64,000 bases of DNA. Origin: Holophagae bacterium (GTDB taxonomy: Bacteria; Acidobacteriota; Thermoanaerobaculia; Thermoanaerobaculales; Sulfomarinibacteraceae). Within the stretch, counting starts at the first letter, position 1. Each line of letters begins with the position of its first letter. Positions 27,912 to 61,919 of this stretch are shown here, piece by piece. The notes under the pieces were generated by a model, which was not told the origin of the DNA, searched no databases, and saw only the letters and a program-made list of their open reading frames with translations. The stretch spans positions 35,253 to 99,252 of the forward strand of contig PQAJ01000245.1 of assembly GCA_003105185.1 (NCBI GenBank). Direction: 5' to 3'. Both the position numbers and the translations under genes were made by a program.

Positions 27912-28106
27912 CTAGCTCGCCTCGCGTGGTATCGCCGGCGAACCGGCGGTGGTTGCGGTGGAGCGGAAGGCTCCAAAGCGGGCCAACCCGCGACGCCTGG
28001 CCCGGGCGGGCCCGGTGGTGAGACCGAGCAGCTGGGCGCGGCGGAAGGCAAGGAGCGCTTCGTTTTGGCGGGCCCGCGCCCACTCCTCCAGGTTGTACAG
28101 TTCCAT
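27912..28106 (-). CDS. small hypothetical protein (64 aa)
   Basis: The ATG at 28106 has GAGGAG 7 nt upstream. MELYNLEEWARARQNEALLAFRRAQLLG... The AT-rich 11-mer shared with the fic promoter lies 34 nt upstream. Confidence 0.45.
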   Translation of the reverse strand: MELYNLEEWARARQNEALLAFRRAQLLGLTTGPARARRRGLARFGAFRSTATTAGSPAIPREAS

Positions 28107-28274
28107 GTCCTTGCTCCTCGTGGCCGCCGGGCCGGGTTGGTTATTCAAGGATGGACTGCCGCCCGGCGTGCTACGTTAAGCGCGTTCACACAGGCCGAAC
28201 TCCATTCGAGATGCGCATCACACAGTGGCTCGAATCGGGGTCTGGTGGTACAAGATCCGCCCAGAGGAGTTCAC

Positions 28275-34112: not shown

Positions 34113-34148
34113 GAGCTGCCTTTCCCGAGCGATGGTGGGCGAACCGTG

Positions 34149-34412
34149 CTACCCGCCCTCCATGGGGCTGAAGAACACGACATCATCGCCATCGGCGAGC
34201 ACTGAATCGCGCGCGCCCTGGTCGCCGTTGATGCCAATCGTAACGTCTTCCTCCGGCGGCACGCTGGCCGCGGCCATGAGGTCGGCGACGGTCGAGCCGG
34301 GCGGCAGGGTGATGGTTAACGGGCCATCGTGGCCGTTGGGGAGGAGGCGCCGGAGGTCGGCGAACAGCGTGAGACGGACGGCGACGGAGGAGGTCGCCCG
34401 GGTGTGGGGCAT
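34149..34412 (-). CDS. MoaD/ThiS-family sulfur-carrier protein
   Basis: 87 aa ending ..DGDDVVFFSPMEGG* (C-terminal Gly-Gly). It lies 36 nt upstream of aor. Confidence 0.8.
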   Translation of the reverse strand: MPHTRATSSVAVRLTLFADLRRLLPNGHDGPLTITLPPGSTVADLMAAASVPPEEDVTIGINGDQGARDSVLADGDDVVFFSPMEGG

Positions 34413-47615: not shown

Positions 47616-47701
47616 ATGGGGTGATTGTGGCGCAGCACCCGGCCTTGCGCGAACGGCGAAGGGCGGGAGGGCAAAACCAACAGCCGGCGGCCACAGCTCG
47701 T

Positions 47702-48274
47702 CTACTCTGCGAAGATGCTCGCGACAAGCAGGCTGAAGCCTTCCGCGCTGAACCCCGCATCCTCGCTCGTCAGCACGTCGGCTTCGCGGCGCGTCTCCAC
47801 CTCGCCACCGGCCCGGAAGACGGTCACGCTGCGTGTCGCCGGCCGCACGATCCAGACCCGGGCGGCGCCCGCATCGAGGTACTCGCCGGCCTTTGCCAGC
47901 AGGTCCTTTTCCCGGTCGTCGGGCGACATCACCTCCACGGCCAGGTCCGGCGCGCCTTCGACGAATCCCCGGCGGCCAGCCCCCCTGGGACGGCGATCCG
48001 CAGTCACAAACGATACGTCGGGAGCCCGGACGACATCCGGGTCTTCGGCAAGCTTGAATCCAGTTTCGACGCTCACGCGTCCAAGTCGCTGCGCATCCGC
48101 AAAGGCTTTGAGCGCAAAAGCGATGTCAGTCGCAATTTCACCATGTTCCAGTCCGACGGGGCTCACGCAAACCACCCTCCCGCGGTCGAGCTCCATCTTG
48201 CCGCCTTCGATGGGCTCGGGGAGGTGCAGGAACTCCTCCGCCGTCAGTAACCGGGGTACCGCGGGGCTCGCCAT
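47702..48274 (-). CDS. Uma2-family (DUF820) restriction-endonuclease-fold protein
   Basis: LTAEEFLHLPE..ELDRG....SP....H.. then PDVSFV..APDLAVEVMSP.. is the characteristic Uma2 D..(D/E)xK layout. Confidence 0.85.
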   Translation of the reverse strand: MASPAVPRLLTAEEFLHLPEPIEGGKMELDRGRVVCVSPVGLEHGEIATDIAFALKAFADAQRLGRVSVETGFKLAEDPDVVRAPDVSFVTADRRPRGAGRRGFVEGAPDLAVEVMSPDDREKDLLAKAGEYLDAGAARVWIVRPATRSVTVFRAGGEVETRREADVLTSEDAGFSAEGFSLLVASIFAE

Positions 48275-48309: not shown

Positions 48310-49803
48310 TCAGGGCTGTTGGACCTGGAAGCTTCCGAGCCCGGCCGCCTCGAACAGCGGCTGGGCCGCGCGTTCGGTCAGCTCGAACGCCGGGCCGGGA
48401 TACACCCCGATGAACAACACTCCCACCATCAGCACCGCCGCCAGGCACCAGAGTACCGGGCTCACCTTCCACCGGCTTATATCGCCGACCGGGTCGAACA
48501 GGTACATCTGACGGATGATCATCAAGTAGTAGTAGAGGCTGATGAAGCTGTTCAGCACCGCCAGGCCCACCAGCCAGAGCAGTTCGTCGGTCGTCGCGCC
48601 CTGAAACATGAAGAGCTTGGTCGCGAAGCCCGCAAACGGCGGCAGCCCCGCGAACGAGAACAGCGCGATCGTTATCACCAGCGCCAGGAACGGCTGGGTC
48701 TCGGCGAGCCCGCGCAGGCCGGGGATGTCCTCGCGCCCCGTTCGGTTGTAGGCGGCGGTCAGCGCCGCGAACAGCGCCAGCGTTGCCAAGACGTACCCGG
48801 CGATATGGAGGAGGAGCGCCGAAGAGGCATCCTGGCCCACCTTCGCATCGCCGTAGCCGATCGCCGCGATGGTGATGAGCATGTAGCCCACCTGGCCGAT
48901 GGACGAATACGCGACGAGGCGTTTCAGGTTCGATTGCTGGATGGCGACCAGGTTGCCCAGCGTCATCGTGACCGCCGCCAGCACCGCCACCGCCCAGCGC
49001 CATTCGGCCGCGTCGACGATCAACGCCCCCGTGAACAGGCGGAGGATGAGGGCGAAGCCGGCCGCCTTCGAAGCCGTCGAGAGGAACGCCGTGATCGGCA
49101 GGGGCGCGCCCTCGTAGGCGTCTGGCGCCCACATGTGGAACGGAGCCGCCGATACCTTGAAGCCGACGCCGGCGAGGATGAGCATCATGCCGACGATCAC
49201 CGCCGGGTCGGTGCCCGAACCGCGGGCCGTAAGCCCTTCCGCGATGCCCTCGTAATACGTGGTCCCCGTGACGCCGTAGATCAGGCTCATGCCGTAGAGG
49301 AACATCGCGCTCGAAAAGGCGCCGAGGAGGATGTACTTCAGGCTCGCTTCGCTGCTCAGGTTGTCGCGCTTCAGGTACCCGACCAGGATGTAGAGCGAAA
49401 AGCTGAGCAGTTCGAGGGCGATGTAGGCGGTCAGCAACTCGGTCGCGGCGGCCATGTAGACCATGCCGCAGCCGGCCACCAGCAACAGCCCGTAGTACTC
49501 CGCGACCGTCTTCGTCCGCGTGCGCATGTGGGTGGCCGACATCAACGCGACCACGATGACGATGCTCGCGGCGAGCAGCCGGAAGTAGGTGGTGAAGTCG
49601 TCCGAGCGGATGAGGCCCTGGAAGCTGTTCGGGTCCTTGCCGATGAAGAACAGGCCCGAAACGAGCCAGCCGAGCGCGGCGATCGCCGTGATGTAGGCCA
49701 GCCAGTCCTTGCGGAACTTCGGCCAGAAGAGCTCGATGCCGATGATGCCCACGGCCGACCCGGCGGCGATGTATTCGGGGATGAAGATCGTGTAGTCGCG
49801 CAT
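48310..49803 (-). CDS. nuoN: NADH-quinone oxidoreductase subunit N
   Basis: 497-aa polytopic antiporter-like subunit, last in the operon. Its start overlaps the nuoM stop by 1 nt. Confidence 0.93.
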   Translation of the reverse strand: MRDYTIFIPEYIAAGSAVGIIGIELFWPKFRKDWLAYITAIAALGWLVSGLFFIGKDPNSFQGLIRSDDFTTYFRLLAASIVIVVALMSATHMRTRTKTVAEYYGLLLVAGCGMVYMAAATELLTAYIALELLSFSLYILVGYLKRDNLSSEASLKYILLGAFSSAMFLYGMSLIYGVTGTTYYEGIAEGLTARGSGTDPAVIVGMMLILAGVGFKVSAAPFHMWAPDAYEGAPLPITAFLSTASKAAGFALILRLFTGALIVDAAEWRWAVAVLAAVTMTLGNLVAIQQSNLKRLVAYSSIGQVGYMLITIAAIGYGDAKVGQDASSALLLHIAGYVLATLALFAALTAAYNRTGREDIPGLRGLAETQPFLALVITIALFSFAGLPPFAGFATKLFMFQGATTDELLWLVGLAVLNSFISLYYYLMIIRQMYLFDPVGDISRWKVSPVLWCLAAVLMVGVLFIGVYPGPAFELTERAAQPLFEAAGLGSFQVQQP

Positions 49804-51308
49804 CAGCCCGTAACTCCCGGCAGCAGGGTAACGGTCTGCCCGACCCGGTCAGTAAACGGCGCCCACCAGACGCCCATGATGACGATGGAGGCGATGAGCA
49901 TGCCGCCGGAAAGCCGTTCGAGCGGTGTCAGGTCCTTCAGGTCAGACCACCTCACGTCGAATGGTCCGAAAAACACGATGGCGAACAACCGCAGCATGTA
50001 GGCCGCCGCCAGTGCCGCCGCGAAAATGGCCAGCGCGCCGAACACCGGGTACGACCGGAACGTGCCCACGAAGATGTGGAATTCCGCCGTGAACCCGGAG
50101 AAGCCCGGCAACCCGACGTTCGCAAGACCCGCAATGCTGTAGAAGATCACCCAGAGCGGCATCACCTTCGTAATCCCGCCGAAGTCCTTCAGGTCGCGCG
50201 TGTGCGCCTGGTCGTAGAGCGCCCCAATCATGAGGAAGACGAGGGCCGTCATCACTCCGTGGCTGAACATCTGGAGCACCGCTCCAGTCACGCCAATCTG
50301 GTTCATGGTTGCCAGTCCCATGAGCACGTAGCCCATGTGGCTCACTGAGCTGTAGCCGGAAATGAGCTTGAAGTCGCGCTGCGTGAGCGCCGCCGTAGCG
50401 CCGTACACCGCGCCGATGACGCCAAGCACCATGAGGGTCGGCATCCAGAACTCGGCCCCCGCTGGCATCATCTGGATGCCGAGCCGGATGATGCCGAACG
50501 CGCCGAGCTTCATCAGCACGCCCGCGTGCACCATCGAGACCGCTGTCGGTGCGGCCATGTGGCCGTCAGGCGACCACGTGTGGAACGGCCACAGCGCGGC
50601 CAGCACCCCGCAGCCAACCACCATGAACGGGAAGAACACCTTCTGGAACGTGGGGCTCAGCGTGCCGTCGCGGCCGGCGGCCCACAGCTGCTCCATGTCG
50701 AACGTGCCCAGGTTCGCCTCGTGGAAGACGGCGAAGATGCCGATCCAGATGAGCACCGAGCCGCCGACCAGCATCAGCGTCAGCTTGGCCGCGCCATACT
50801 CCTTGCGAGTGGAACCCCACACCCCGATGAGCAGGTAGAGCGGCATGACCGCGAGTTCGTAGAAGAAGAAGAAAAAGAACAGGTCGTACGAAAAAAAGGT
50901 GCCGTAGACGCCCGCGAGCAGCGTCCAGTAGAGGATGTAGAAATCCTTGTTGCGGAAGTCGAGCTTCCAGCTTGCGAGCGCACCGGCGAAGGCAACGATG
51001 CCCGTCAGCAACGCCATCAGCGCCGAGATGCCATCTACCGCCAGGTTGAGCGTGATCCCATCCTTGCCGAGGAAGGCCGTGTTTTCGACCCAGACCCACT
51101 GCAGGCGCATCTGGGCGTCCGAACCGTCGAGCTGGTAAGCCGCAAAGATGTAGATAGAAAGCCCGGCGACGATCGCGCCGGTGACAGCCGAGATGTAGCG
51201 GACCAGCATCTTCTGCTGGCCCGGCGTGAATACCAGGACAAGCGCCGCCAGCAGCGGCACCGCAATGGTGGCGAGGACGACATAGCCCTGGCCCTCGTCG
51301 AAGGTCAT
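49803..51308 (-). CDS. nuoM: NADH-quinone oxidoreductase subunit M
   Basis: 501-aa antiporter-like subunit in the conserved L-M-N order. Confidence 0.93.
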   Translation of the reverse strand: MTFDEGQGYVVLATIAVPLLAALVLVFTPGQQKMLVRYISAVTGAIVAGLSIYIFAAYQLDGSDAQMRLQWVWVENTAFLGKDGITLNLAVDGISALMALLTGIVAFAGALASWKLDFRNKDFYILYWTLLAGVYGTFFSYDLFFFFFFYELAVMPLYLLIGVWGSTRKEYGAAKLTLMLVGGSVLIWIGIFAVFHEANLGTFDMEQLWAAGRDGTLSPTFQKVFFPFMVVGCGVLAALWPFHTWSPDGHMAAPTAVSMVHAGVLMKLGAFGIIRLGIQMMPAGAEFWMPTLMVLGVIGAVYGATAALTQRDFKLISGYSSVSHMGYVLMGLATMNQIGVTGAVLQMFSHGVMTALVFLMIGALYDQAHTRDLKDFGGITKVMPLWVIFYSIAGLANVGLPGFSGFTAEFHIFVGTFRSYPVFGALAIFAAALAAAYMLRLFAIVFFGPFDVRWSDLKDLTPLERLSGGMLIASIVIMGVWWAPFTDRVGQTVTLLPGVTG

Positions 51309-51312
51309 GCGA

Positions 51313-53217
51313 TTAGCCCCTCACCACCAGGCCGATGACCGCAAGCGCGACCACGCCGACGGCAACCGCCATGGCGTAGTTCGGCAAACGGCCGGTCTGG
51401 AGATATTTCAATACACCACCGGAGAACCCGGTTACCTGTGCCGAACCATCGACGCCGGTGTCGTTCACCACGTAGCGGTCGAACCACGAGACCACATAGC
51501 TGAACCCGAGCATCCCCCGGTCGATGCCGGCCTGGTACAGCTCATCGAAGTAGAACTTGTTCCGGATCAGGTCGTAGAGGCCCGGCTGAGCCTCGGCGAG
51601 CTGGGTAGAGCGCTTGATGCTGTTGCCCCAGTACATCCAGCCGGCCAGCAGCAGGCCAGTGGCCCCCATCACAACCGAGGCCGTCGCCCAGGCAAGGTCG
51701 AAGTGGTACCTGTGCGGGCCGTGGTGCGGCAGGAAGATGAACTCCGTGATCCCGCCCGGGAAGCCGAGCGCCTTCCCCACGCCGTGGAAGACCACGAACC
51801 CGGAGACGGCCGCGAGGACCGCCAGGAACATCAGCGGCCCCGTCATCACCAGCGCCGACTCCTGGGTGTGCTCGTGGACGTCCTTGTCCCGGGGTGTGCC
51901 CATGAAGGTCCGGATGAAGAGGCGCGTCGTGTAGAAGGCCGTCATCACCGCCGCAAACGCAAGAATGGCGACCGCCCAGACGCCCCACTTGTCGTTGAGC
52001 ACCACGAAGATCTCATCTTTGCTCCAGAAGCCCGCCAGCGGCGGCAGGCCGGCCAGCGCCAGCGACCCGATGAAGAACGTGGTGCCGGTGATCGGCATCT
52101 TCTTCCAGAGGCCCCCGAGCTTGTCCATCTCCTGGTTGTGGTGCGTCGCGTGGATGACCGAGCCGCTCCCAAGGAAGAGGAGCGCCTTGAAAAACGCGTG
52201 CGTCATCAGGTGGAACATCGCCACCGCGGGGTGCCCCGCGCCGAGCGCGACGAACATGAACCCGAGCTGTCCCACGGTCGAATAGGCGAGCACCTTCTTG
52301 ATGTCCGTCTGGGCGAGCGCCATGAACCCGGTGAGCAGGGCCGTCGTGAGACCCACGATGGTGACCATCAACAGCGCCCCATCGGCCACCTCGAAGAGCG
52401 GCAGCAGGCGGGCGGTGAGGTACACGCCCGCGACGACCATCGTCGCCGCGTGGATGAGGGCGGACACCGGGGTGGGGCCTTCCATCGCGTCCGGCAACCA
52501 CACGTGGAACGGGACCTGGGCGCTCTTGCCCATGCACCCGAGGAAGACGAAGGCCACCGCCGCAAACAGGTAATTCTGGCCGACAGCACCTTCTTCGACG
52601 TGGTGGATGATCTCCTGGATGTTGAAGGTGCCGGTGGCCTTCCAGAGCATGATGATGCCGATGAGCAAGCCGACATCGCCGATGCGCGTCGTGATGAAGG
52701 CCTTCTTCGCAGCCTCCGTCGCGCTCCGCTTCTCCCAGTAGAAGCCGATGAGCAGGAACGAACAGACGCCCACGAGCTCCCACGAGATGTAGACGAGCAG
52801 CAGGTTGTCGGCCATCACCAGCAGCAGCATCGAGGCCACGAAAAGCTGGAGGACGGCGAAGAACCAGTAATAGCGCGGCTCACCCTTCATGTAGCCGATG
52901 GAAAAGATGTTCACCATCAGGGCAACCGTGGTGACGACCGCAAACATGACGATGGTGATCGGGTCGACGTAGATGCCCATCCGCAGGTCGAAGCTCTCGC
53001 CGATGCTGGACCACTCAATGTCGTTGACCACCGGCCCGAGCTTCCCCGGCGTATCGAGGAAGTCGACCAGGACGATAAGGAACAGGAGGAACGACGAGAG
53101 GATCGCGGCGACGCCGAGATAGTCGCCGCCGCGCGGCAGGGCGCGCCCGAACAGCGCGAGTACGAGGAACACACCCGCGGGAATAGCAGCGAGCAGCCAG
53201 GCCTCTTCAGCACCCAT
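51313..53217 (-). CDS. nuoL: NADH-quinone oxidoreductase subunit L
   Basis: 634 aa, antiporter-like with a long C-terminal extension typical of NuoL. Confidence 0.93.
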   Translation of the reverse strand: MGAEEAWLLAAIPAGVFLVLALFGRALPRGGDYLGVAAILSSFLLFLIVLVDFLDTPGKLGPVVNDIEWSSIGESFDLRMGIYVDPITIVMFAVVTTVALMVNIFSIGYMKGEPRYYWFFAVLQLFVASMLLLVMADNLLLVYISWELVGVCSFLLIGFYWEKRSATEAAKKAFITTRIGDVGLLIGIIMLWKATGTFNIQEIIHHVEEGAVGQNYLFAAVAFVFLGCMGKSAQVPFHVWLPDAMEGPTPVSALIHAATMVVAGVYLTARLLPLFEVADGALLMVTIVGLTTALLTGFMALAQTDIKKVLAYSTVGQLGFMFVALGAGHPAVAMFHLMTHAFFKALLFLGSGSVIHATHHNQEMDKLGGLWKKMPITGTTFFIGSLALAGLPPLAGFWSKDEIFVVLNDKWGVWAVAILAFAAVMTAFYTTRLFIRTFMGTPRDKDVHEHTQESALVMTGPLMFLAVLAAVSGFVVFHGVGKALGFPGGITEFIFLPHHGPHRYHFDLAWATASVVMGATGLLLAGWMYWGNSIKRSTQLAEAQPGLYDLIRNKFYFDELYQAGIDRGMLGFSYVVSWFDRYVVNDTGVDGSAQVTGFSGGVLKYLQTGRLPNYAMAVAVGVVALAVIGLVVRG

Positions 53218-53235
53218 GAGTCTTTTCGGCCCCTT

Positions 53236-53544
53236 CTACCACTTCATACTTGCCGCTTCGTCCACGTTGCTCGTGGCGCGGTTGCGGAACAGGCGAATGA
53301 CAATTGCCAGCGCCAATCCAACTTCCGCTGCGGCTACGGTGATGATGAACACGGCGAAAATTGCGCCGAGCACTTTATCCGGATCGAGATAGGCTGCAAA
53401 CGCCACAAAGTTGATGCTCACGGCGTTCAGCATCAATTCGACGCTCATCAGGATGAGCACCGCGTTCCGGCGGGCAAGTACCCCATACACGCCAAGTGAG
53501 AACATGACGGCGCTGAGGACGAGGTAGTTTTCGAGTGGAACCAT
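53236..53544 (-). CDS. nuoK: NADH-quinone oxidoreductase subunit K
   Basis: 102 aa, three TM helices, ..LMSVELMLNAV... Confidence 0.93.
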   Translation of the reverse strand: MVPLENYLVLSAVMFSLGVYGVLARRNAVLILMSVELMLNAVSINFVAFAAYLDPDKVLGAIFAVFIITVAAAEVGLALAIVIRLFRNRATSNVDEAASMKW

Positions 53545-53546
53545 CG

Positions 53547-54047
53547 CTACTCGCCCTCCTCTTGCCGGGCAAGGATGATCGCCCCGATAAGGGCTACCAG
53601 CAAGAGCACGGACGACAGCACAAACGGGACGCCAAAGCCCGTGAACATCCGCTCGCTGATGGTTTCGATGGCGATGTTCGCCGGGCCCTCACCGCTATCA
53701 CCCCAGGCCGTGTCCAGCGCGACCGCCACGAGGATCGTGACCAGCGAGATGCCCAGCAGCAGCGCGAACGGCAGCTGCGGGCCGTTCACCGGCTCCGGCC
53801 GCCCCGCCGCGTCTCTGCGCGTCAGCATCAGCGCGAGCAGAATGAGCACGGTGACCGCCCCGCCGTAAATGAGGAACTGCACCAGCGCCAGGAACTCGAC
53901 CGTCAGGAAGACGTACATCGCGCCGACCCCGGCCATGCTACCGATGAGGAAGATTGCCGCGTGGAGCACCGATCGCGAGAACACCACGCCCGCGGAGGCG
54001 CCGACAATCGCGGCCGCGAAGATCCACCAGAGGACTTCAGTTGCCAT
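53547..54047 (-). CDS. nuoJ: NADH-quinone oxidoreductase subunit J
   Basis: 166-aa hydrophobic protein positioned between I and K. Confidence 0.9.
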   Translation of the reverse strand: MATEVLWWIFAAAIVGASAGVVFSRSVLHAAIFLIGSMAGVGAMYVFLTVEFLALVQFLIYGGAVTVLILLALMLTRRDAAGRPEPVNGPQLPFALLLGISLVTILVAVALDTAWGDSGEGPANIAIETISERMFTGFGVPFVLSSVLLLVALIGAIILARQEEGE

Positions 54048-55649
54048 CTAGCCTGCTCCCTCCGGCACATTGCCGCCCAGTTCCTTGATCGTGGCGAGCA
54101 CATCCTCGGGGATGGCTTCGCCCTTCTCGATCGCTTCCTTCGCCTTGCGCTCGGCGCGCATCCGGCGGGCGCGCACCTTCTCGTACGAGTTCGGGTCGCC
54201 CTTCGGGCCGATGCCGATGCCCGGCGGCGGCACCCAGCCATCCGCGTCCGGGGCAATGCCACCCTCCGCGGGCGCCGCGGCTCCACCACCACCGCCGCCC
54301 AGCGTCGCCCAGATGCTGCCCCCTGGCGCGAGGTCGCTGCCAAGGTCATAGAGCGTCTTCGCGATGTCGTCCGGGATCGCCTCCCCCGCGGCCGTGAGCT
54401 CGTTGAACTTGCGCTCCGCGCGCATCCGCCGGGCCCGCACCTTCTCCGCCGAGTTCGGGTCGCCCTTCGGGCCGTCGCCGACTCCCGGCGGGAAGCGCAT
54501 GCTGCCATCGGGGTTCGTCCCCGTCAGCGGGGCCGCCGGCGCGCCGCCACCTCCCGGGCCCGCGAGCTTCGCCCAGATCGTCCCGCCCGGTGCAAGGTCG
54601 CTCCCGAGGTCGTAGAGGGTCTGCGCCACATCCTCGGGGATCGGCTCTCCGGCAGCGGTGAGTTCGTTGAACTTGCGCTCGGCGCGCATCCGCCGGGCTC
54701 GCACCTTCTCCGGCGAATTCGGGTCGCCCTTGGGGCCGTCGCCAACCCCGGGCGGGAAGCGCATGCTGCCATCGGGGTTCGTCCCCGTGAGCACCACGCC
54801 GGTGCCGCCGGCAGCGGCGCCGCCGCCTGCGGCCGCGGCCTCGCCCGGCTTCATGTTCCGGTACTTCTCAATGGCATCCAGGATCTCCTGAGGGACGGCC
54901 TCGCCGCGGTCCTGGAATTCCTTCGCCTGGCGTTCGGCGCGCATGCGCTTCGCCCGGATCTTCGATTCGGAGAGGATTTCGACCTCTTCGCCCCCGGCGG
55001 CCGCGGCTGGGCCCGCTTTCGCGGCAACCTGCTTCACCTCGGGTTCGCGCTCCTGGATCGCCGCGGGGAGCCCCTGCGCGATGCGGTCGATCTGAGCCTG
55101 CCGGTTTTCCGGGAAGGCGCCAACGAAGGTCGGCTCGGGCGGTTCTTCGCCTTTTACCTGCCGCTCGAGTATCTCGATGTTGTCCTGCGGGCGGAACGGG
55201 TGGATCAGTTCCCCGGTGCGCGAAACCTTTAGCAGCTCGTCGATGTTCATGTGCAGGTCGCGCCGGTCGTACACCGAGTGCTCGTGACCCGTCCAGTTGT
55301 TGTCCATCACGATCGCTTCGAAGGGGCAGACCTCGACGCAGATATTGCAGCGCATGCAGCGCGCGTAGTCGATCCAGAACTTCTCGACGATCTTCCGCCG
55401 GTTGCTCGTGCCCTCGGCGTACTTCGGGTTGTCGATCATGGTCGCGGTCATGCAATCGACCGGGCAGTTGCGGACGCAAACGTTGCAGCCGGTGCAGAAC
55501 GGCTCGTCGTGGTCGAAGTCCCACGTCAGCACCGGGAAGCTGCGCTGGCGCACCGGCAGAACGTGCTTCACGTCCGGGTATTTCACCGTCACCGGCTTGC
55601 GGGTGAAGGTCGAAAAGGTGACGCCGAGACCTTTCAGGATGCCTTTCAT
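54048..55649 (-). CDS. nuoI: NADH-quinone oxidoreductase subunit I (2x[4Fe-4S]) with a roughly 370-aa repeat-containing C-terminal extension
   Basis: The ATG at 55649 overlaps the nuoH stop (ATGA). Residues 1-165 form a canonical NuoI (CTGCNVCVRNCP and CMRCNICVEVCP). Residues 166-533 are an extension with four K(V/I)RA(R/K)RMRAER motifs. The upstream 129 codons of the 662-aa ORF-track call overlap nuoH and are rejected. Confidence 0.9.
   Translation of the reverse strand: MKGILKGLGVTFSTFTRKPVTVKYPDVKHVLPVRQRSFPVLTWDFDHDEPFCTGCNVCVRNCPVDCMTATMIDNPKYAEGTSNRRKIVEKFWIDYARCMRCNICVEVCPFEAIVMDNNWTGHEHSVYDRRDLHMNIDELLKVSRTGELIHPFRPQDNIEILERQVKGEEPPEPTFVGAFPENRQAQIDRIAQGLPAAIQEREPEVKQVAAKAGPAAAAGGEEVEILSESKIRAKRMRAERQAKEFQDRGEAVPQEILDAIEKYRNMKPGEAAAAGGGAAAGGTGVVLTGTNPDGSMRFPPGVGDGPKGDPNSPEKVRARRMRAERKFNELTAAGEPIPEDVAQTLYDLGSDLAPGGTIWAKLAGPGGGGAPAAPLTGTNPDGSMRFPPGVGDGPKGDPNSAEKVRARRMRAERKFNELTAAGEAIPDDIAKTLYDLGSDLAPGGSIWATLGGGGGGAAAPAEGGIAPDADGWVPPPGIGIGPKGDPNSYEKVRARRMRAERKAKEAIEKGEAIPEDVLATIKELGGNVPEGAG
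54051..54974 (-). repeat. in-frame tandem coding repeats inside nuoI
   Basis: Unit A is 54525-54791 (residues 287-375) and unit B is 54258-54524 (residues 376-464). Each is 89 aa, and they are about 90% identical over the first 75 residues by hand alignment. There is a degenerate unit C at 54051-54257 and a partial unit at 54855-54974. Confidence 0.85.
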
Positions 55650-56803
55650 TGGGGAGTCGACCCCAGGGTGCGGTACGTGCCCACCAGGCCCTTGCTGGCC
55701 TTGGCGGTCGAGTGCCGGATGATGAGCGCGATAAGGACCACCGCGCCGATCCCGCTCGTGAGCGCCAGCAGCTCCTGCGGCCAGCCGTACAGCAGGATGA
55801 AGCCGTTCACGATGAGCTGCACAAACGAAAGTTCGAGCAGCACCTTCCAGCTGAAGTTCATGAGCTGGTCGATGCGGAGCCGGGGCACTGTGACGCGCAT
55901 CCACATGATGGCGATGATGAACGCCAGGCTCTTCACGAGCGTAGTCCCGAGCTGGACCGTCCAGTGCGCGTCGACGCCGAACGGCCAGGCCCACCCGCCC
56001 AGGAACACCACCGACCCGAAGACGCTGAAGCCCCACATCGAGGCGTATTCAGTGAGCTGGAACATGCTCCACCGGATGCCCGAGTACTCCACGAAGTAGC
56101 CGCCCACAATTTCCGACTCCGCGACCGGGATGTCGAACGGCGCGCGGTGGAGCTCCGACAGCATCGCCGTGAAGAAGATGAGGAACGCAAGCGGCTGTAG
56201 GACGATGTACGGCCGGTCCTCCTGCAGCGCAGCGATCACGTTCAGGTTGAGCGTGCCGACCCCACCGCCCATGTCGGCCCCCGTGATCATGACCACGCAG
56301 AGCAGGCTGATGACCAGCGGGATCTCGTAACTGATCATCTGGGCCGCGGCGCGCACGCCGCCAAGAAGCGCGTACTTATTCCCCGACCCGAGCCCCGCCA
56401 TCATGATGCCCACGATGTTCAGGCCAAGGATGGCGAACACGTAGAACAACCCGAGCGCCAGGTTCCGGACGCCCCAGTCCTTCGCGAACGGCAGCACCAT
56501 GAGCGTCATCAGCACCGGGATGAACGTCGCGTAGGGCGCCAGTTCGAACACCCAGCGGTCCGCGTTCGTCGGCCGGATGTCTTCCTTGGTCACCAGCTTC
56601 AGCGCGTCGGCGAAGCCCTGGAGGATGCCGCCCGGGCCGGTCTTGCGGGGGCCAAGGCGTTGCTGAAAGCGCGCGACCACCCAGCGCTCACCAACGGTGA
56701 GGTACACCACCACGATGGTCATCACCATGACCACGATGACCACCCGGATGATCGCGTCGACCCAGGACGGGAGGCCGAACAGCGGGTCGGCAAACAACAT
56801 CAC
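55646..56803 (-). CDS. nuoH: NADH-quinone oxidoreductase subunit H
   Basis: 385-aa polytopic protein with ..ERWVVARFQQRLGPRKTGPGGILQGFADALKL... Its start overlaps the nuoD stop. Confidence 0.93.
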   Translation of the reverse strand: MMLFADPLFGLPSWVDAIIRVVIVVMVMTIVVVYLTVGERWVVARFQQRLGPRKTGPGGILQGFADALKLVTKEDIRPTNADRWVFELAPYATFIPVLMTLMVLPFAKDWGVRNLALGLFYVFAILGLNIVGIMMAGLGSGNKYALLGGVRAAAQMISYEIPLVISLLCVVMITGADMGGGVGTLNLNVIAALQEDRPYIVLQPLAFLIFFTAMLSELHRAPFDIPVAESEIVGGYFVEYSGIRWSMFQLTEYASMWGFSVFGSVVFLGGWAWPFGVDAHWTVQLGTTLVKSLAFIIAIMWMRVTVPRLRIDQLMNFSWKVLLELSFVQLIVNGFILLYGWPQELLALTSGIGAVVLIALIIRHSTAKASKGLVGTYRTLGSTPQ

Positions 56804-57942
56804 TTATCCACCTCGCCCAGCACGATATCGAGCGACCCCAGGATGATGATCGCGTCGGCAACGTAGTGCCCCACGACCATCTGCTTCAGCGCCGACAGGT
56901 TACAGAAGGAAGGCGACCGCAGCTTCATGCGGTACGGCTTGTTGCCGCCCTTCGCCATCGCGTACACGCCGTATTCGCCCTTCGTCCCTTCGGTCCGGAC
57001 GTAGCATTCGCCGCTCTCGATGCGGAGCGTCTTCGGCAGGTCGGGGTTGAGCACGAGGCCCTTCGGCATCTGGTCCAGGCACTGCTCGATGATCTTCGTG
57101 CTCTGCCACGCCTCGGCCATCCGCACGATGAAGCGGTCGAAAATGTCGCCCGTCTTCCCCACCGGGATGTCGAACTTCAGGCGGTCGTAGATGCTGTAGG
57201 GCTCGACCTTGCGGATGTCATACGGCAGGCCGGTCGACCGCAAGCAGGCGCCGGAAAGGCCCCAGTCGATCGCCTGCTCCTGGGTCACCGGCGAGAGGCC
57301 GCGGCAACGCTCCACGAAAATCTCGTTGCCCGTCAGCAGCCCATCGAAGTCCTCCAGGCCCTGGCGGATCGAGCCGAGCAGCCACCGCACCCGGTCCTCG
57401 TAGTTCTCCGGCAGGTCCATCTGCAGGCCGCCGGGGCGGAAATACGTCGGGAACATGCGGTCACCCGAGACTTCCTCGAAGAAGTCGTAGATGCGTTCGC
57501 GTTCGCGCCACGCGTAGATGAAGCTCGTGCCAAACGAACCGACATCCGCCCCGAACGCCCCGAAGAACATCAGGTGCGAAAGGATGCGCGAGAGCTCCAC
57601 CATCATCACGCGGATGTACTCCGCCCGCTCCGGTACCTCGAACTGGCCGAGCTTCTCGACCGCCATGCAGTAGGCCATCTCGCAGGCCATCCCCGCCAGG
57701 TAGTCGGTCCGGTCCCACCAGCCCATCGACTGGCGGTAGTCGTGGTTCTCGGTGAGCTTCTCGAGCCCGCGGTGCAGGTAACCGATGTACGGCTCGCAAT
57801 CGACGACCATCTCGCCGTCGACCGTGAGCACCATCCGGAACACCCCGTGGGTGGCCGGGTGCTGCGGCCCCACGTTGATGGTCATATCGACCGTGTTGAA
57901 GTCGTCGGCCGTTACCAGCCGTTCCTCGGGCCAAACAGTCAC
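56800..57942 (-). CDS. nuoD: NADH-quinone oxidoreductase subunit D
   Basis: The GTG at 57942 has GGAGGT 6 nt upstream. ..MTINVGPQHPATHGVFRMVL..YIGYLHRGLEKL... Confidence 0.93.
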   Translation of the reverse strand: MTVWPEERLVTADDFNTVDMTINVGPQHPATHGVFRMVLTVDGEMVVDCEPYIGYLHRGLEKLTENHDYRQSMGWWDRTDYLAGMACEMAYCMAVEKLGQFEVPERAEYIRVMMVELSRILSHLMFFGAFGADVGSFGTSFIYAWRERERIYDFFEEVSGDRMFPTYFRPGGLQMDLPENYEDRVRWLLGSIRQGLEDFDGLLTGNEIFVERCRGLSPVTQEQAIDWGLSGACLRSTGLPYDIRKVEPYSIYDRLKFDIPVGKTGDIFDRFIVRMAEAWQSTKIIEQCLDQMPKGLVLNPDLPKTLRIESGECYVRTEGTKGEYGVYAMAKGGNKPYRMKLRSPSFCNLSALKQMVVGHYVADAIIILGSLDIVLGEVDK

Positions 57943-58003
57943 GCGGCACCTCCGCGGAGAAGCGCACCGGCGCGCGCTGTGGTGGACGGGGGCATGATGC
58001 GCA

Positions 58004-58519
58004 TTAGAACTTGAACCCCGGATCGCGGTCTTCGATACCCTGCGCAATCTCCATCTTCTGGAGCGGGTGCGCCTTGAGCAGCGGGTGGATGCGGACATCC
58101 TCATCCAGCAGCAGGTTCTTCAAATTCGGGTGGCCATCGAACACGAGCCCCAACATCTCCGCCGCCTCGCGCTCATGCCAGTCGGCCGCCGCATACAGCC
58201 CGGTGATCGACGGGATGTGGGGGTTGCCCGGGGGCGTGTGCACGGTCACCTGGATCGAGTGGCGGTGCTTCATCGAATGGAGCTGGTACTTGCAGACCAG
58301 CCCTTCCTCCTGCATGTCGATGCCGACCATGTTGCGGAGGTAGTCGAACGCCAGCTCCCGCCGCTCCTTCAGTCCCTGCATCAGTTCGAGGAGGTGGGCT
58401 GGCTCGACGGTGATGTTCGCGTCCGTGAGCGTCTTGTCCGCGGTGAACGGCACCTTCGGCAGGTGCTTGTGCACCAGCGCCGAGACTCCGGGGTAGGCGG
58501 GGGCGGTTTCGTTCGTCAT
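58004..58519 (-). CDS. nuoC: NADH-quinone oxidoreductase subunit C
   Basis: The ATG at 58519 overlaps the nuoB stop. ..[21 protein letters not shown]... Confidence 0.9.
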
Positions 58520-59076
58520 CCGACCATCCGCTTTTCTTCCATAATCTTCTCCTGCAGGCGCAGGAACCCTTCGAGCAGCGACTCGGGGCGCGGCGGGCAC
58601 CCCGGCACGTACACGTCGACCGGGATGATCTTGTCGACGCCCTGCAGGACCCGGTCGTACTCGGTATAGGGGCCGCCGTTGGTGGCGCAGGCGCCCATGG
58701 AGATGACGTACTTCGGGTTCGGCATCTGCTCGTACAGCAGCTTGATCGCCGGCGCCATCTTCTTGGTCACCGTCCCCGAAACGATCATCACGTCGCTCTG
58801 GCGCGGGCTCGGCCACGGCACGATGCCGAAACGGTCCAGGTCGTGGTTCGCCATGAACGTGCCAATCATCTCGATGGCGCAGCAGGCGAGGCCGAACGTC
58901 ATCGGCCAGAGCGAACTCTTGCGGCTCATCGCGATCACCTGGTCCGCGCCCGTCTGGATGACGCCCGGGAGGACGATCCGGTAGGCAGCGCGAGTCTGCG
59001 GGATCTCGACCGGCTTGAGGCGTTCGGCCTCGGCGCCGAAGTCCGGCACATACGGCGTAATCACGGTATCGCTCAT
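58516..59076 (-). CDS. nuoB: NADH-quinone oxidoreductase subunit B
   Basis: The ATG at 59076 overlaps the nuoA stop. ..[34 protein letters not shown]... Confidence 0.93.
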
Positions 59077-59438
59077 GGCTTCCACTCCAGCACGCCGCGC
59101 TTCCAGGCGTAGACCAGCCCGAGGCTGAGGATCAGGATGAAGGCGATCATGTGATAGAAGACGAAATCGGGCAGCGCCAGGTAGGTCATCGCCCAGGGAA
59201 AGATAAAGACAGTCTCCACGTCGAAAATCAAAAAGAGGATCGCGATCAGGTAGTAGCGGATGTGGACCTGCGACCAGTTGCGCCCGATCGGGAGCATGCC
59301 GCACTCGTAGCTGACGCCTTTGCCCCGCTCCCGCGCGAAGGGAGCCAGCAGGCGGGCGCCGATGAGCGCCGTGAATACCAGGACGAACCCGGCGATCGCG
59401 GCGATCATGACGGCGGACCAGGAGTCGTAGAAGCTCAT
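59073..59438 (-). CDS. nuoA: NADH-quinone oxidoreductase subunit A
   Basis: The ATG at 59438 gives a 121-aa, 3-TM protein with ..[21 protein letters not shown]... Confidence 0.9.
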
Positions 59439-59671: not shown

Positions 59672-60592
59672 ATGAGCCATATTCGTGCCGCTGCACAACA
59701 AGGAGAGCGGCCATGGCAAAGACGGGGCACAGACTACACCGGGTTAAACCGCCAATTAGCGTGGGCGGATGACGGTCGCCCGGTGCGATCCGTCGGAGGT
59801 TGGACCCGGGACAAGTTGGCGCTCCTGGCGTACTACCTTCCGGCATTCGCGAAGCTCTGCACCGACAAGGTCGGCGGCTGGTACTACCTCGATGGCTTCG
59901 CGGCGAATGGAGTCAACCGCACACAAGAATTCCCTTTAGCGAAGGGGACAGCGCTGATCGGCCTCTCGCAATCACCGCCGCCCACCAAGGCCCTGCTGAT
60001 CGAGCGGAACCACGATGATGTCGAGACGCTCCGCGCTCGAAGCATCCCATTTCTTACAGAGACGCTGGTCTTGGAGGGAGACGCAAACGAACTGATTCCG
60101 AAGCAACTGGCTTTCTTCGACCTCCCCCACCTTCCGGGCTTCTGCGTTCTGGACCCTGAAGGATTGGAACTCGACTGGACGACAATTCAGGCGTGTGCAG
60201 AGCACCGGCGCGGTCGCACGCCGTACGAACTCCTCATCTATTTCTCAACGCCGGGAGCCGCACGCACGGGCGCCGTCCAAGCTGCCGGGTATGTAGAGAA
60301 GACCGAAGCGCGATTGCAGCGGCTCTTTGGTAACGAATCATGGCGTGAGGTGGCGCAGCAGCAAGGCCGCCGGGTACTGGCGCCCGGGGAGGCCAGCAAC
60401 TTGTATCTCTCGATGTATGAATCGCAGCTCAGAAACCTCGGCTACACCACCGTCTTGAGTCGTCCATCGCTTCGTCAGGATGGAGTCCTCGTGTATCACA
60501 TGGTCTTCGCGTCAGCTAACGAGGCGGGCGCAAGCATAATGGCCAGCGCATTCAAGCGTGCGTACGGAAGCCAGGTTCCGCTTCAATTCTAG
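59672..60592 (+). CDS. tcmP: three-Cys-motif partner protein TcmP-like
   Basis: The pattern ..GGWTRDKLALLAYYLPAFAKL..WYYLDGFAANG..LIERN..VLEGDANE..FCVLDPEG.. matches my recollection of the TcmP family, which pairs with DUF5131/Gp37-Gp68 proteins. The start (ATG at 59672) is uncertain. Confidence 0.7.
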   Translation: MSHIRAAAQQGERPWQRRGTDYTGLNRQLAWADDGRPVRSVGGWTRDKLALLAYYLPAFAKLCTDKVGGWYYLDGFAANGVNRTQEFPLAKGTALIGLSQSPPPTKALLIERNHDDVETLRARSIPFLTETLVLEGDANELIPKQLAFFDLPHLPGFCVLDPEGLELDWTTIQACAEHRRGRTPYELLIYFSTPGAARTGAVQAAGYVEKTEARLQRLFGNESWREVAQQQGRRVLAPGEASNLYLSMYESQLRNLGYTTVLSRPSLRQDGVLVYHMVFASANEAGASIMASAFKRAYGSQVPLQF

Positions 60593-61318
60593 CTAAGCCG
60601 GCATGGCGTCCCACGTCCGCCCGTGTAACAACCGCCCCGCCCGGCTCTTGCCAACCCGCCGTCCGTTGCAGTCGTGCGCGCCCCACTGCTTGAAGAAGAA
60701 GGCAACACCTGCATCCTCGCACTGCCGCCGGATCGACTCCGCCCACTCTTCCTTCATCGGTCGCGCCTTTGGACCTGACTCTCCGCCGACGATCACCCAG
60801 CGGATCCCACTCAGATCGAGCCGGAGTGGTCCCAGAAGCGGTTCGCAACTCAGGAACCGCACCGTGGCGGGAGTCTCCCGGAGCGCATCAACGCGGTGCA
60901 CCCAGCGTTGATTCTCGACGGACGTGCCCATCCAGATGTTCTCGGTCCATGTGAGTTCCCGCGTGAGCGCCGCCGCACGCTCGGGGCGCTTGGTGAGCAC
61001 CTGGAAGCTATGCCACCACGCCCGATTCATCGTCTCGAACACGGACGCGATGTACTCGTCGGGTACCTCTTCGTGGAACAGGTCGCTCATCGAGTTCACA
61101 AAGATGAGCCGCCCGCGCTTCCACTGCAGCGGCAGTTCGAGTCGCTCAGGCCGGAGTTGCAGGTCGAAGCCGTTCTCATAGGGGTGGCCCGGCACCCCCC
61201 GGAAGCGTTCCGCGAACGTCTCCGCGTAGCAATGGGCACAACCCGGGCTGACCTTCGTGCAACCCGTGACCGGATTCCAGGTCGCCTGCGTCCACTCGAT
61301 CGCCGAACCGTCGCTCAT
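60593..61318 (-). CDS. phage Gp37/Gp68-family protein (DUF5131) with a three-Cys motif
   Basis: MSDGSAIEWTQATWNPVTGCTKVSPGCAHCYA.. is the canonical DUF5131 N-terminus (C-x6-C-x2-C). RBS GGGAGG. The stop abuts the tcmP stop (TAG|CTA, zero spacer). Confidence 0.88.
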   Translation of the reverse strand: MSDGSAIEWTQATWNPVTGCTKVSPGCAHCYAETFAERFRGVPGHPYENGFDLQLRPERLELPLQWKRGRLIFVNSMSDLFHEEVPDEYIASVFETMNRAWWHSFQVLTKRPERAAALTRELTWTENIWMGTSVENQRWVHRVDALRETPATVRFLSCEPLLGPLRLDLSGIRWVIVGGESGPKARPMKEEWAESIRRQCEDAGVAFFFKQWGAHDCNGRRVGKSRAGRLLHGRTWDAMPA

Positions 61319-61744: not shown

Positions 61745-61823
61745 GGCGGCGGCACGGCCCGCGATCCCCGCTTCCCGGATGCTCCTGTCGTCCCGGCTTC
61801 GCGCCGGGAGCCGTGCCGCCGCC
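61745..61823 (+). other. nested stem structure (14-bp outer stem enclosing a 7-bp hairpin) in the putative 5' leader of the hydrolase-cyclase gene
   Basis: GGCGGCGGCACGGC (61745-61758) is perfectly complementary to GCCGTGCCGCCGCC (61810-61823). The inner hairpin is TCCCGGC-ttcgc-GCCGGGA (61791-61809). Confidence 0.35.
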
Positions 61824-61919
61824 CGTCATCGGAACAATTTCCATCCGGCCGTCGTTAGGCCCGCGGAACAGGCCGGTGGCCAGGGTTGTTTACACGGTCC
61901 CGCAAAATTGGGGGCAGCG

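What the first reader, a model, noticed from the sequence alone, without database searches (positions are those of the whole stretch)
54048..55649. NuoI is three times its normal length, with a C-terminal extension made of tandem 89-aa repeats
**Seen in the sequence**
- The canonical two-ferredoxin-motif NuoI core ends near residue 165, but the ORF continues to residue 533.
- The extension contains four copies of K(V/I)RA(R/K)RMRAER(K/Q), each followed by an acidic ..G(E)(A/P)IP(E/D)D.. helix.
- Two full 89-aa units are about 90% identical to each other: LTGTNPDGSMRFPPGVGDGPKGDPNS(P/A)EKVRARRMRAERKFNELTAAGE(P/A)IP..TLYDLGSDLAPGG(T/S)IWA.
- The units are separated by Gly/Ala/Pro linkers.
- The repeats are in frame and the stop abuts the nuoJ ATG, so this is not an artefact of ORF extension.

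**Established knowledge.** NuoI/Nqo9 is normally about 160-190 aa.

**Inference.** NuoI sits on the peripheral arm where the electron-input module docks. In this nuoEFG-less operon the repeat array could act as a tether or docking platform for an alternative donor. The near-identity of units A and B suggests recent duplication or concerted evolution.
Basis: partly seen in the sequence, partly recalled or inferred. Interest (0 to 1): 0.7.

Follow-up and report, generated by a model that had tools for sequence, protein, structure and literature searches.

The report
Long NuoI with repeated tail domains
The iron-sulfur subunit NuoI of this bacterium's respiratory complex I really is three times its normal length: it carries 3-4 copies of a previously undescribed small domain, conserved across the order Tepidiformales, whose cultured members lack the usual NADH-input module, so the tail is a good lead to the unknown electron donor of such "headless" complex I enzymes.

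Summary
nuoI lies on the minus strand (54048-55649, 533 aa), coupled to nuoH (ATGA overlap) and nuoJ (TAG then ATG).

**Anatomy**
- Canonical 2x[4Fe-4S] core, aa 1-141.
- Conserved post-core segment.
- Four modules on Gly/Ala/Pro linkers. Each has an Arg-rich helix (K[VI]RA[RK]RMRAER), a GE-x-IP turn and an acidic helix.

**Not an artefact, not recent**
- M2 and M3 are 88-92% identical in protein but only 85.6% in DNA (24 synonymous vs 6 non-synonymous codon differences).
- dN/dS of the modules (0.01-0.4, mostly ≤0.2) is similar to the Fe-S core.
- 251 species-level genomes carry this NuoI subfamily. All 68 complete genes among the 82 related loci examined keep 3-4 modules. All are Tepidiformales or related Dehalococcoidia.

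**The module is new**
- No Pfam match, no significant PDB sequence or fold match.
- Only 21 cluster representatives among 1.84 billion proteins, all NuoI or fragments.
- AlphaFold folds it confidently (pLDDT 86).

**Context and function**
- The operon is always nuoABCDHIJKLMN.
- Published Tepidiforma genomes lack nuoEFG entirely.
- The most likely role, by inference only, is multivalent capture of a soluble electron donor at the NuoI entry site.
- Within-protein repeat similarity supports concerted evolution.

The parts
54048..55649 (-). nuoI, 533 aa plus stop (long form)
   Evidence: ORF and translation. Coupled to nuoH and nuoJ. Best homologue is 96% identical, 531 aa, annotated NuoI.
55227..55649 (-). 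Canonical NuoI core, aa 1-141: N-terminal amphipathic helix plus two [4Fe-4S] motifs. The inter-cluster loop carries invariant G80, S82, R84, R85, K86.
   Evidence: Pfam Fer4 families at aa 48-115. NCBIfam NuoI models match aa 1-145. PDB NuoI/TYKY/NdhI chains match aa 2-146. Invariant columns.
55035..55226 (-). Conserved post-core segment, aa 142-205 (…PFRPQD…PAAIQEREPE), two predicted helices
   Evidence: Mean pairwise identity 0.62. AlphaFold helices 154-165 and 180-191, pLDDT up to 90. Present in all lineages, including distant ones.
54846..54977 (-). Module M1, aa 225-268: degenerate first module (Arg-rich helix, GEAVP turn, helix 2) lacking the PPGxGxGPKGDPNS N-terminal part
   Evidence: Motif at aa 230. 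HMM domain hit of 34.7 bits. Identity 0.77 across the family. Helices 228-248 and 254-265.
54570..54791 (-). Module M2, aa 287-360 (full unit)
   Evidence: AlphaFold of this unit alone: pLDDT 86.4, pTM 0.74.
54306..54527 (-). Module M3, aa 375-448 (full unit, 92% aa and 85.6% nt identical to M2)
54051..54257 (-). Module M4, aa 465-533 (terminal unit; ends …ELGGNVPEGAG)
   Evidence: The GGAGG Shine-Dalgarno-like sequence for nuoJ lies in its last codons.
54978..55034 (-). Linker 0, aa 206-224 (Ala/Gly/Pro-rich, pLDDT <50)
54792..54845 (-). Linker 1, aa 269-286 (78% Gly/Ala/Pro)
54528..54569 (-). Linker 2, aa 361-374 (86% Gly/Ala/Pro)
54258..54305 (-). Linker 3, aa 449-464 (Gly/Ala/Pro-rich; least conserved part)
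48310..59438 (-). 11-gene operon nuoABCDHIJKLMN without nuoEFG. Coordinates: nuoA 59073-59438, nuoB 58516-59076, nuoC 58004-58519, nuoD 56800-57942, nuoH 55646-56803, nuoI 54048-55649, nuoJ 53547-54047, nuoK 53236-53544, nuoL 51313-53217, nuoM 49803-51308, nuoN 48310-49803.
   Evidence: ORFs. Same order in 82 related loci. No NuoE/F/G signature motif in the window or flanks.

Best explanation
**What it is (shown).** This is a genuine, selectively maintained long form of NuoI, characteristic of the order Tepidiformales (Dehalococcoidia, Chloroflexota). The canonical two-cluster core (aa 1-141) is followed by a conserved 65-aa segment. Then come 3-4 copies of a previously undescribed 45-75-aa mini-domain. 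Each copy has a DPNS helix cap, an Arg-rich helix (universal core SPxKxRARRM[RK]AER), a GE-x-[IV]P turn and a short acidic helix. The copies are strung on poorly conserved Gly/Ala/Pro linkers.

**How it most likely works (inferred).**
- NuoI holds the first Fe-S cluster at the electron-entry face of the Q-module.
- The cultured members of the order have only 11-subunit complexes and no NuoEFG.
- The array is therefore best read as a set of flexible, multivalent capture arms. They would bind a soluble electron donor and hold it at high local concentration next to the NuoI entry cluster.
- Candidate donors are reduced ferredoxin, or a ferredoxin-, flavin- or F420-dependent donor protein.
- Copy number (3 vs 4) changes by unequal recombination between repeats, and gene conversion keeps the copies within one gene alike.
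For: **The gene is real and under constraint**
- It is translationally coupled to its neighbours.
- Module dN/dS is 0.01-0.4, against 0.07-0.13 for the core.
- M2 and M3 differ by 24 synonymous and 6 non-synonymous codon changes.

**Conservation**
- 174 protein clusters match the extension.
- 251 species genomes carry this NuoI subfamily.
- Among complete genes, 38 have 4 modules, 28 have 3 and 2 matched only 2 under the motif regex.
- Modules are 0.72-0.82 identical, against 0.85 for the core and 0.40-0.59 for the linkers.

**Folded beads on a flexible string**
- In the full-length model, modules reach pLDDT 80-90 and linkers fall below 50.
- A module predicted alone gives pLDDT 86.4 and pTM 0.74.

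**The functional surface is the basic helix**
- K29, R33, R34, R36 and R39 are invariant in the module alignment.
- The motif SPxKxRARRMxAER is the only part kept in distant relatives P0128, P0135, L062 and L065-L082.

**Confined to NuoI**
- An exhaustive profile search found 21 representatives, all NuoI or fragments.

**The input module is missing**
- nuoD abuts nuoH in all loci and no NuoE/F/G motifs are nearby.
- Tepidiforma isolates have two 11-subunit operons and no NuoEFG. They are strict aerobes, and aldehyde:ferredoxin oxidoreductases are conserved in the order (PMC10284905 and its supplement).
- An AOR gene lies in this window at 32310-34112.

**Precedent**
- In cyanobacterial NDH-1L, ferredoxin docks on a basic patch formed by the NdhI hairpin loop and NdhH (PMC6992706).
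- The donor of bacterial 11-subunit enzymes is an acknowledged open question, and a 'docking platform' idea has been proposed (PMC11238625; PMC3144371).

**Recombination**
- P0012 and P0025 are identical except for a clean deletion of one 90-aa unit.
Against: - No binding partner was identified, and nothing here tests binding.
- No ferredoxin-type gene is linked to the operon in the window or in 82 loci.
- Each module is nearly neutral overall (net -2 to +3). It pairs a +7/-3 helix with a 0/-5 second helix. Simple electrostatic 'fishing' for an acidic ferredoxin is therefore not obviously favoured.
- The very high sequence conservation argues for a specific partner or an intramolecular role rather than generic attraction.
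- No similarity to any known ferredoxin-binding protein was found.
- I could not determine whether the second Tepidiforma nuo operon has a short NuoI.
Confidence: 0.4

Rival explanations
1. Structural cap or protective shield. The post-core segment and modules fold back onto the surface that NuoG/NuoEF would cover in 14-subunit enzymes. There they stabilise the headless peripheral arm, or shield the exposed entry cluster from O2 in these strict aerobes.
For: - The organisms are strict aerobes without an N-module.
- The post-core segment aa 142-205 is conserved and predicted helical.
- High sequence conservation of the modules suits fixed protein-protein contacts.
Against: - Modules are separated by long, poorly conserved, low-confidence Gly/Ala/Pro linkers.
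- Copy number varies between 3 and 4, even between congeneric isolates: T. bonchosmolovskayae has 3 and T. flava has 4.
- Near-identical repeated units are unlikely to fit different fixed sites on an asymmetric complex.
Confidence: 0.2
2. Organiser or scaffold. The dipolar modules (basic helix plus acidic helix) bind each other head-to-tail, anionic membrane lipids, or other respiratory complexes. This would cluster complex I or tether it in supercomplexes.
For: - Charge is separated within each module: +7/-3 in the first helix against 0/-5 in the second.
- The array is multivalent.
- The Arg residues are invariant.
Against: - AlphaFold packs the two helices of a module against each other within the module. 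That leaves less reason for inter-module pairing.
- There is no amphipathic membrane-binding signature beyond the buried hydrophobic stripe (my own reading of the sequence, not a computed test).
- No linked partner genes were found.
Confidence: 0.12
3. Nucleic-acid or ribosome binding (moonlighting or regulation) through the arginine-rich helices.
For: - The Arg-rich helix resembles arginine-rich RNA-binding motifs (from general knowledge).
- The weak, non-significant profile matches are to basic regions: a tRNA methyltransferase N-terminus and DNAJC9 (E 0.19-0.36).
Against: - Those matches are not significant.
- No nucleic-acid-binding Pfam family matches.
- The module occurs only on NuoI.
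- Acidic flanks neutralise the charge.
Confidence: 0.04
4. Artefact: assembly expansion of a repeat, a missed frameshift or stop, or a non-functional low-complexity read-through.
For: - One homologue pair (P0012, 539 aa; P0025, 449 aa, from a 2.4-kb short-read contig) differs only by a clean one-unit deletion. That could be an assembly collapse.
Against: - M2 and M3 differ at 14% of nucleotides, so they are resolvable by assemblers.
- The ORF is continuous in 68 of 68 complete genes, including finished isolate genomes and chromosome-level assemblies.
- Purifying selection acts in this reading frame.
Confidence: 0.01

Closest known systems
Canonical NuoI / Nqo9 / TYKY (NDUFS8) subunit of complex I
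   Same: - Two [4Fe-4S] motifs.
- N-terminal amphipathic helix.
- Position between nuoH and nuoJ.
- Sequence similarity over aa 1-146 to solved NuoI chains.
   Different: - Solved NuoI chains are 139-239 aa. This one is 533 aa.
- It scores below every NCBIfam NuoI cut-off (94 bits against 163).
- It carries a 390-aa tail with a new repeated domain.
Ferredoxin-docking apparatus of cyanobacterial/chloroplast NDH-1 (NdhI hairpin loop, NdhH C-terminus, accessory NdhS/NdhV/NdhO)
   Same: - An 11-core-subunit complex lacking NuoEFG.
- Extra protein elements around NdhI/NuoI create or support a basic donor-binding site (PMC6992706).
- The NuoI loop here also carries invariant R84, R85, K86.
   Different: - There the helpers are separate small subunits with other folds. 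Here the extra mass is fused to NuoI and repeated 3-4 times.
- No sequence or fold similarity was found.
N-terminal extension of NuoC in Bacillaceae 11-subunit complex I (Moparthi & Hägerhäll 2011)
   Same: A lineage-specific appendage on a Q-module subunit of an N-module-less complex I, suggested to contact an unknown partner protein (PMC3144371).
   Different: - Different subunit and a different, non-repetitive sequence.
- That paper reports nothing unusual in NuoI.
Swinging-arm / tandem-domain tethers (lipoyl and peripheral-subunit-binding domains of 2-oxoacid dehydrogenase E2; FNR-binding repeats of Tic62/TROL) - from general knowledge
   Same: - Small folded units repeated in variable number.
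- Ala/Pro/Gly-rich flexible linkers.
- Near-identical copies within one gene.
- A role in bringing redox partners together.
   Different: - No homology (Pfam E3_binding and related families do not match).
- No conserved Cys, His or modifiable Lys common to all lineages, so no cofactor attachment is indicated.
C-terminal Lys-rich extension of FpoI in Methanothrix (Methanosaeta) proposed as a ferredoxin-docking site - recalled from memory; not found in the searchable library
   Same: A basic C-terminal extension on the NuoI homologue of an enzyme lacking its input subunit, proposed to attract ferredoxin.
   Different: - As I recall it, that tail is short and non-repetitive.
- It was not compared here. 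FpoI matches only the core (NF040612, aa 6-120).

Membership tests
NuoI / complex I 23-kDa (TYKY) subunit | Two CxxCxxCxxxCP [4Fe-4S] binding motifs | tested here: met
   C52/55/58/62 and C98/101/104/108 are invariant in 34 sequences. Pfam Fer4 families match.
NuoI / complex I 23-kDa (TYKY) subunit | Encoded between nuoH and nuoJ in a nuo operon | tested here: met
   Window ORFs. Same order in 82 loci.
NuoI / complex I 23-kDa (TYKY) subunit | Scores above the curated family cut-off (NCBIfam/TIGR01971) | tested here: not met
   The best model, NF004537, scores 94.1 bits against a cut-off of 163. TIGR01971 scores 86.6 against 113. The protein is clearly homologous (E 8e-27), but it is a divergent subfamily.
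NuoI / complex I 23-kDa (TYKY) subunit | Size about 140-240 aa | tested here: not met
   533 aa here, 423-555 aa in complete genes of the subfamily. Solved NuoI chains are 139-239 aa.
11-subunit (N-module-less) complex I | nuoABCDHIJKLMN with no nuoEFG in the operon or the genome | tested here: met
   Operon level. Genome level is shown only for Tepidiforma isolates, from the literature (PMC10284905 supplement). It was not tested for the window's own genome.
NDH-1 ferredoxin-docking accessory subunits (NdhS/NdhV/NdhO) | Sequence or fold homology to those subunits | tested here: not met
   Pfam scans gave no such family. The PDB profile search had best E 0.079, unrelated. Foldseek against PDB had best E 2.6.
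Peripheral-subunit-binding domain / E2 swinging-arm domains | Match to Pfam E3_binding or lipoyl families | tested here: not met
   No match at E<=10 for 24 module sequences or at E<=1 for the whole protein.
Donor-docking tether (functional class, not a homology family) | Physical binding of ferredoxin or another donor protein | not testable with these tools
   Needs pull-down, ITC, cryo-EM or multimer modelling. Only single-chain prediction was available.

The most novel reading that the evidence does not exclude
The repeated module is a dedicated recruitment antenna. In these strictly aerobic bacteria without any NuoEFG, it would replace the N-module by capturing a specific soluble donor protein at NuoI. 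The donor could be ferredoxin or an as-yet unrecognised detachable dehydrogenase. If so, the module could serve as bait to identify the long-sought physiological electron donor of bacterial 11-subunit complex I.
Probability: 0.3. Interest if true: 0.8.

Novelty: new variant of a known kind. Interest (0 to 1): 0.62.

Why it matters
The electron donor of bacterial 11-subunit complex I enzymes, which lack NuoEFG, is an acknowledged open question (PMC11238625, PMC3144371).

- **An unusual case.** An order that includes cultivable strict aerobes (Tepidiforma flava, T. bonchosmolovskayae) has no N-module genes. It has also fused a conserved, folded, repeated domain of unknown function to the subunit that holds the electron-entry cluster.
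- **A concrete handle.** A 74-aa module can be expressed and used as bait, and the native enzyme comes from a culturable organism suitable for cryo-EM.
- **A new domain family.** The module has no Pfam or PDB counterpart.
- **An evolutionary example.** It is a clean case of concerted evolution and copy-number change inside an essential respiratory gene.

Tried and rejected
**Searches for a known domain in the tail, all negative**
- Pfam and NCBIfam scans of the whole protein, and of 24 module sequences, found nothing in the tail.
- A PDB profile search with the module gave best E 0.079, which is not significant.
- Foldseek of the module model against PDB gave best E 2.6.

**Libraries that were unavailable**

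**Searches for the module outside NuoI**
- The exhaustive HMM search was meant to find it in other protein contexts. It found only NuoI proteins and fragments.

**Searches for linked genes**
- Regex scans for NuoE/F/G signatures in the window and 82 loci gave only out-of-frame noise.
- Scans for extra ferredoxin motifs found none.

**Literature**
- No paper mentions a long NuoI in Chloroflexota.
- The FpoI lysine-rich tail I recalled could not be found in the library.
- Two searches were poorly framed and returned nothing useful.

**Ideas considered and dropped**
- A cofactor-carrying swinging arm (lipoyl-, ACP- or PCP-like). No Cys or His is present. The 'PKG' lysine and the 'LGSDL' serine context are absent in distant lineages.
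- Recent duplication. Synonymous divergence between M2 and M3 is substantial.

**Caveats and gaps**
- In one search my nuoB query was accidentally taken one base out of frame. Its hits therefore show DNA-level synteny only.
- I could not retrieve the second nuo operon of Tepidiforma to compare its NuoI.
Full report
**Observation**

The coordinates 54048-55649 hold a 533-codon gene on the minus strand. Its ATG overlaps the nuoH stop (…CCCCAATGAAAGGC…). Its TAG is followed immediately by the nuoJ ATG (…GGAGGGAGCAGGCTAGATGGCA…). The gene therefore sits inside a translationally coupled operon:

| Gene | Coordinates |
|---|---|
| nuoA | 59073-59438 |
| nuoB | 58516-59076 |
| nuoC | 58004-58519 |
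| nuoD | 56800-57942 |
| nuoH | 55646-56803 |
| nuoI | 54048-55649 |
| nuoJ | 53547-54047 |
| nuoK | 53236-53544 |
| nuoL | 51313-53217 |
| nuoM | 49803-51308 |
| nuoN | 48310-49803 |

nuoD abuts nuoH, so there is no nuoEFG.

- Pfam sees only 4Fe-4S domains, at aa 48-115.
- NCBIfam NuoI models and 45 solved NuoI/TYKY/NdhI-type chains align only to aa 1-146.
- The motif K[VI]RA[RK]RMRAER occurs at aa 230, 315, 403 and 491.
- Tandem Repeats Finder reports a 264-bp period at 54144-54792.
- Pairwise alignment gives M2 (aa 287-360) against M3 (aa 375-448) as 76/86 identical. M4 is about 65% identical to either, and M1 is a degenerate copy.

Two details need adjusting: the strand is minus, and the core ends nearer aa 141-146 than 165.

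**The tail is real and constrained**

- GC3 is 0.80-0.90 across the whole ORF.
- M2 and M3 are 85.6% identical in DNA. They differ by 24 synonymous and 6 non-synonymous codon changes, and 27 of 32 substitutions fall at third positions. The two copies are old enough to have accumulated many silent changes, and both are under purifying selection. At 14% nucleotide divergence they are not an assembly duplication.
- Against five orthologues, Nei-Gojobori dN/dS is 0.01-0.40 for the modules, mostly ≤0.2. It is 0.07-0.13 for the Fe-S core.
- Among 38 four-module proteins, mean pairwise identity is as follows:

| Region | Mean pairwise identity |
|---|---|
| Core | 0.85 |
| M2, M3 | 0.82 |
| M1 | 0.77 |
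| M4 | 0.72 |
| Post-core segment | 0.62 |
| Gly/Ala/Pro linkers | 0.40-0.59 |

**Distribution**

- A search with the tail alone (aa 166-533) returned 174 protein clusters. The 120 listed are NuoI-type proteins or fragments of them. They come from Dehalococcoidia and Tepidiformaceae, including Tepidiforma bonchosmolovskayae and Candidatus Amarobacter glycogenicus.
- A scan of one genome per GTDB species found 251 genomes with this NuoI subfamily. The 80 best loci include the finished genome of T. flava, chromosome-level MAGs, and the genera SLAK01 and UBA2991.
- Every locus has the order nuoABCDHIJKLMN.
- The nuoI ORF is uninterrupted in all 68 complete genes. By motif count, 38 have four modules, 28 have three, and two matched only two under the regex.
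- The congeneric isolates differ: T. bonchosmolovskayae has 454 aa and 3 modules, T. flava has 537 aa and 4 modules.

**Repeat dynamics**

- Within a protein, M2 and M3 are 0.90 identical on average.
- Between proteins, M2-M2 identity is 0.82, M3-M3 is 0.81 and M2-M3 is 0.81.
- There is therefore no orthology signal between repeat positions. That is the signature of concerted evolution, or of repeated loss and re-duplication.
- In the window, the first ~110 nt of the two units are almost identical while the rest is more diverged. This is compatible with a conversion tract.
- P0012 (539 aa) and P0025 (449 aa) are identical apart from a clean 90-aa deletion that fuses M2 to M3 in register. This is either unequal recombination or a short-read assembly collapse.

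**What the module is**

- A profile of 24 diverse modules (alignment A2) was run with HMMER over 1.84 billion representative proteins. It found 21 proteins.
- Inspection of ten of them showed long NuoI proteins or fragments of them.
- The divergent members P0128, P0135 and loci L062, L065-L082 keep only the core [GD]DP[NM]SPxKxRARRM[RK]AER, followed by a GE-x-x-P turn and a second helix.
- No Pfam family matches any module.
- The PDB profile search gave nothing significant (best E 0.079).
- Foldseek of the model against PDB gave nothing below E 2.6.
- AlphaFold2 predicts the isolated module with pLDDT 86.4 and pTM 0.74. The model has an irregular N-terminal part, a 21-residue helix and a 9-residue helix.
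- In the full-length model the modules reach pLDDT 80-90 and the linkers fall below 50.
- Invariant positions cluster in the cap and on the basic helix: K29, A32, R33, R34, R36, A37, R39.
- Each module is a charge dipole, with a +7/-3 first helix, a 0/-5 second helix, and net charge -2 to +3.
- There are no Cys or His residues, and no Lys or Ser conserved across all lineages. A covalently bound cofactor is therefore unlikely.

**Biological context**

- Neither the 64-kb window nor the ±10-kb flanks of 82 loci contain NuoE/F/G signature motifs.
- None contains any other ferredoxin-type cluster motif.
- The supplementary note of Palmer et al. 2023 states that Tepidiforma strains G233 and YIM 72310 have two 11-subunit nuo operons and lack NuoEFG genes.
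- According to that paper, the strains are strict aerobes and oxidase-positive, and aldehyde:ferredoxin oxidoreductases are conserved in the order.
- An AOR gene with a ThiS-like neighbour lies in this window at 32310-34412.
- That paper does not mention the NuoI tail. Nor does any paper I could find.
- The donor of bacterial 11-subunit complexes is described as an open question, with NuoI named as the acceptor of incoming electrons (PMC11238625; PMC3144371).
- In cyanobacterial NDH-1L, ferredoxin binds a basic patch made by the NdhI hairpin loop and NdhH, supported by accessory subunits (PMC6992706).
- In the present family, the loop between the two cluster motifs carries invariant G80, S82, R84, R85 and K86.

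**Interpretation**

Shown:
- a conserved, folded, repeated, lineage-restricted new domain;
- fused to the electron-entry subunit of an N-module-less complex I;
- with flexible linkers and variable copy number.

Inferred:
- The array acts as multivalent capture arms for a soluble donor protein. I put this at about 0.4.

Rivals:
- a structural or protective cap (0.2);
- a self-, membrane- or supercomplex-organising scaffold (0.12);
- nucleic-acid binding (0.04);
- an artefact (0.01).

The variable number of near-identical units on disordered linkers argues against fixed structural sites. The near-neutral dipolar modules and the very high conservation argue against non-specific electrostatic fishing, and for a specific partner that remains unidentified.

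**Verdict**

- The docking idea is plausible but untested.
- 'Recent duplication' is rejected in favour of long-maintained repeats homogenised by recombination.
- This is a new variant of a known kind: NuoI of 11-subunit complex I carrying a novel domain family. It is unannotated and, as far as I could search, undescribed.

Noticed in passing
window 32310-34412 (-): A tungsten-type aldehyde:ferredoxin oxidoreductase (AFOR_N + AFOR_C, 600 aa) sits next to a ThiS/MoaD-like 87-aa gene. A ferredoxin-reducing enzyme in what is probably a strict aerobe is relevant to the question of the complex I donor.
   Followed up: partly
window 4416-6791 (-): A P-type ATPase (E1-E2_ATPase + HAD) carries a C-terminal hemerythrin domain (aa 637-769), an uncommon fusion. 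A second, Ca/Mg-type P-type ATPase lies at 24788-27697 (+).
   Followed up: no
window 7870-8124 (-) and 17538-17792 (+): Two paralogous 84-aa HicB-like antitoxin genes with similar sequences (…PYH.VITGEP.EGYLGE.PELPGC), about 9.4 kb apart on opposite strands. No obvious HicA partner was examined.
   Followed up: no
window 10952-11589 (+); 19239-20041 (+): An RHH (CopG) plus PemK/MazF toxin-antitoxin pair. A second two-gene cassette (129 aa + 138 aa, overlapping stop/start) has no Pfam match but a layout like a PIN/antitoxin pair.
   Followed up: partly
window 46737-48274 (-): A D12-class N6-adenine DNA methyltransferase and a Uma2-family endonuclease lie directly downstream of nuoN. In Tepidiforma bonchosmolovskayae (L001) the same position holds a 146-aa gene and secA, so this looks like a local insertion.
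   Followed up: partly
window 60593-61318 (-) and 59672-60592 (+): A DUF5131 (phage Gp37/Gp68-like) protein lies next to a 306-aa protein with no Pfam match, immediately upstream of the nuo operon.
   Followed up: no
window 61779-63356 (+): A fusion of an alpha/beta-hydrolase domain with an adenylate/guanylate cyclase catalytic domain (525 aa). A Crp-type cNMP-binding regulator lies at 28065-28967.
   Followed up: no
window 2199-4328 (-), 14379-17273 (-), 42155-43720 (-): Three large ORFs (709, 964 and 521 aa) have a strong coding signature (GC3 0.78-0.92) but no Pfam match at E<=1e-5.
   Followed up: no
window 54051-54065 (-), last codons of nuoI: The Shine-Dalgarno-like GGAGG for nuoJ is embedded in the C-terminal codons (…PEGAG) of nuoI. 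Part of the conservation of the extreme C-terminus may therefore reflect translational coupling rather than protein function.
   Followed up: no
P0012 vs P0025 (homologues, not in the window): Two database proteins are 100% identical except for an in-register deletion of exactly one 90-aa repeat unit. The shorter one comes from a 2.4-kb short-read contig. This is either strain-level copy-number polymorphism or repeat collapse during assembly.
   Followed up: partly
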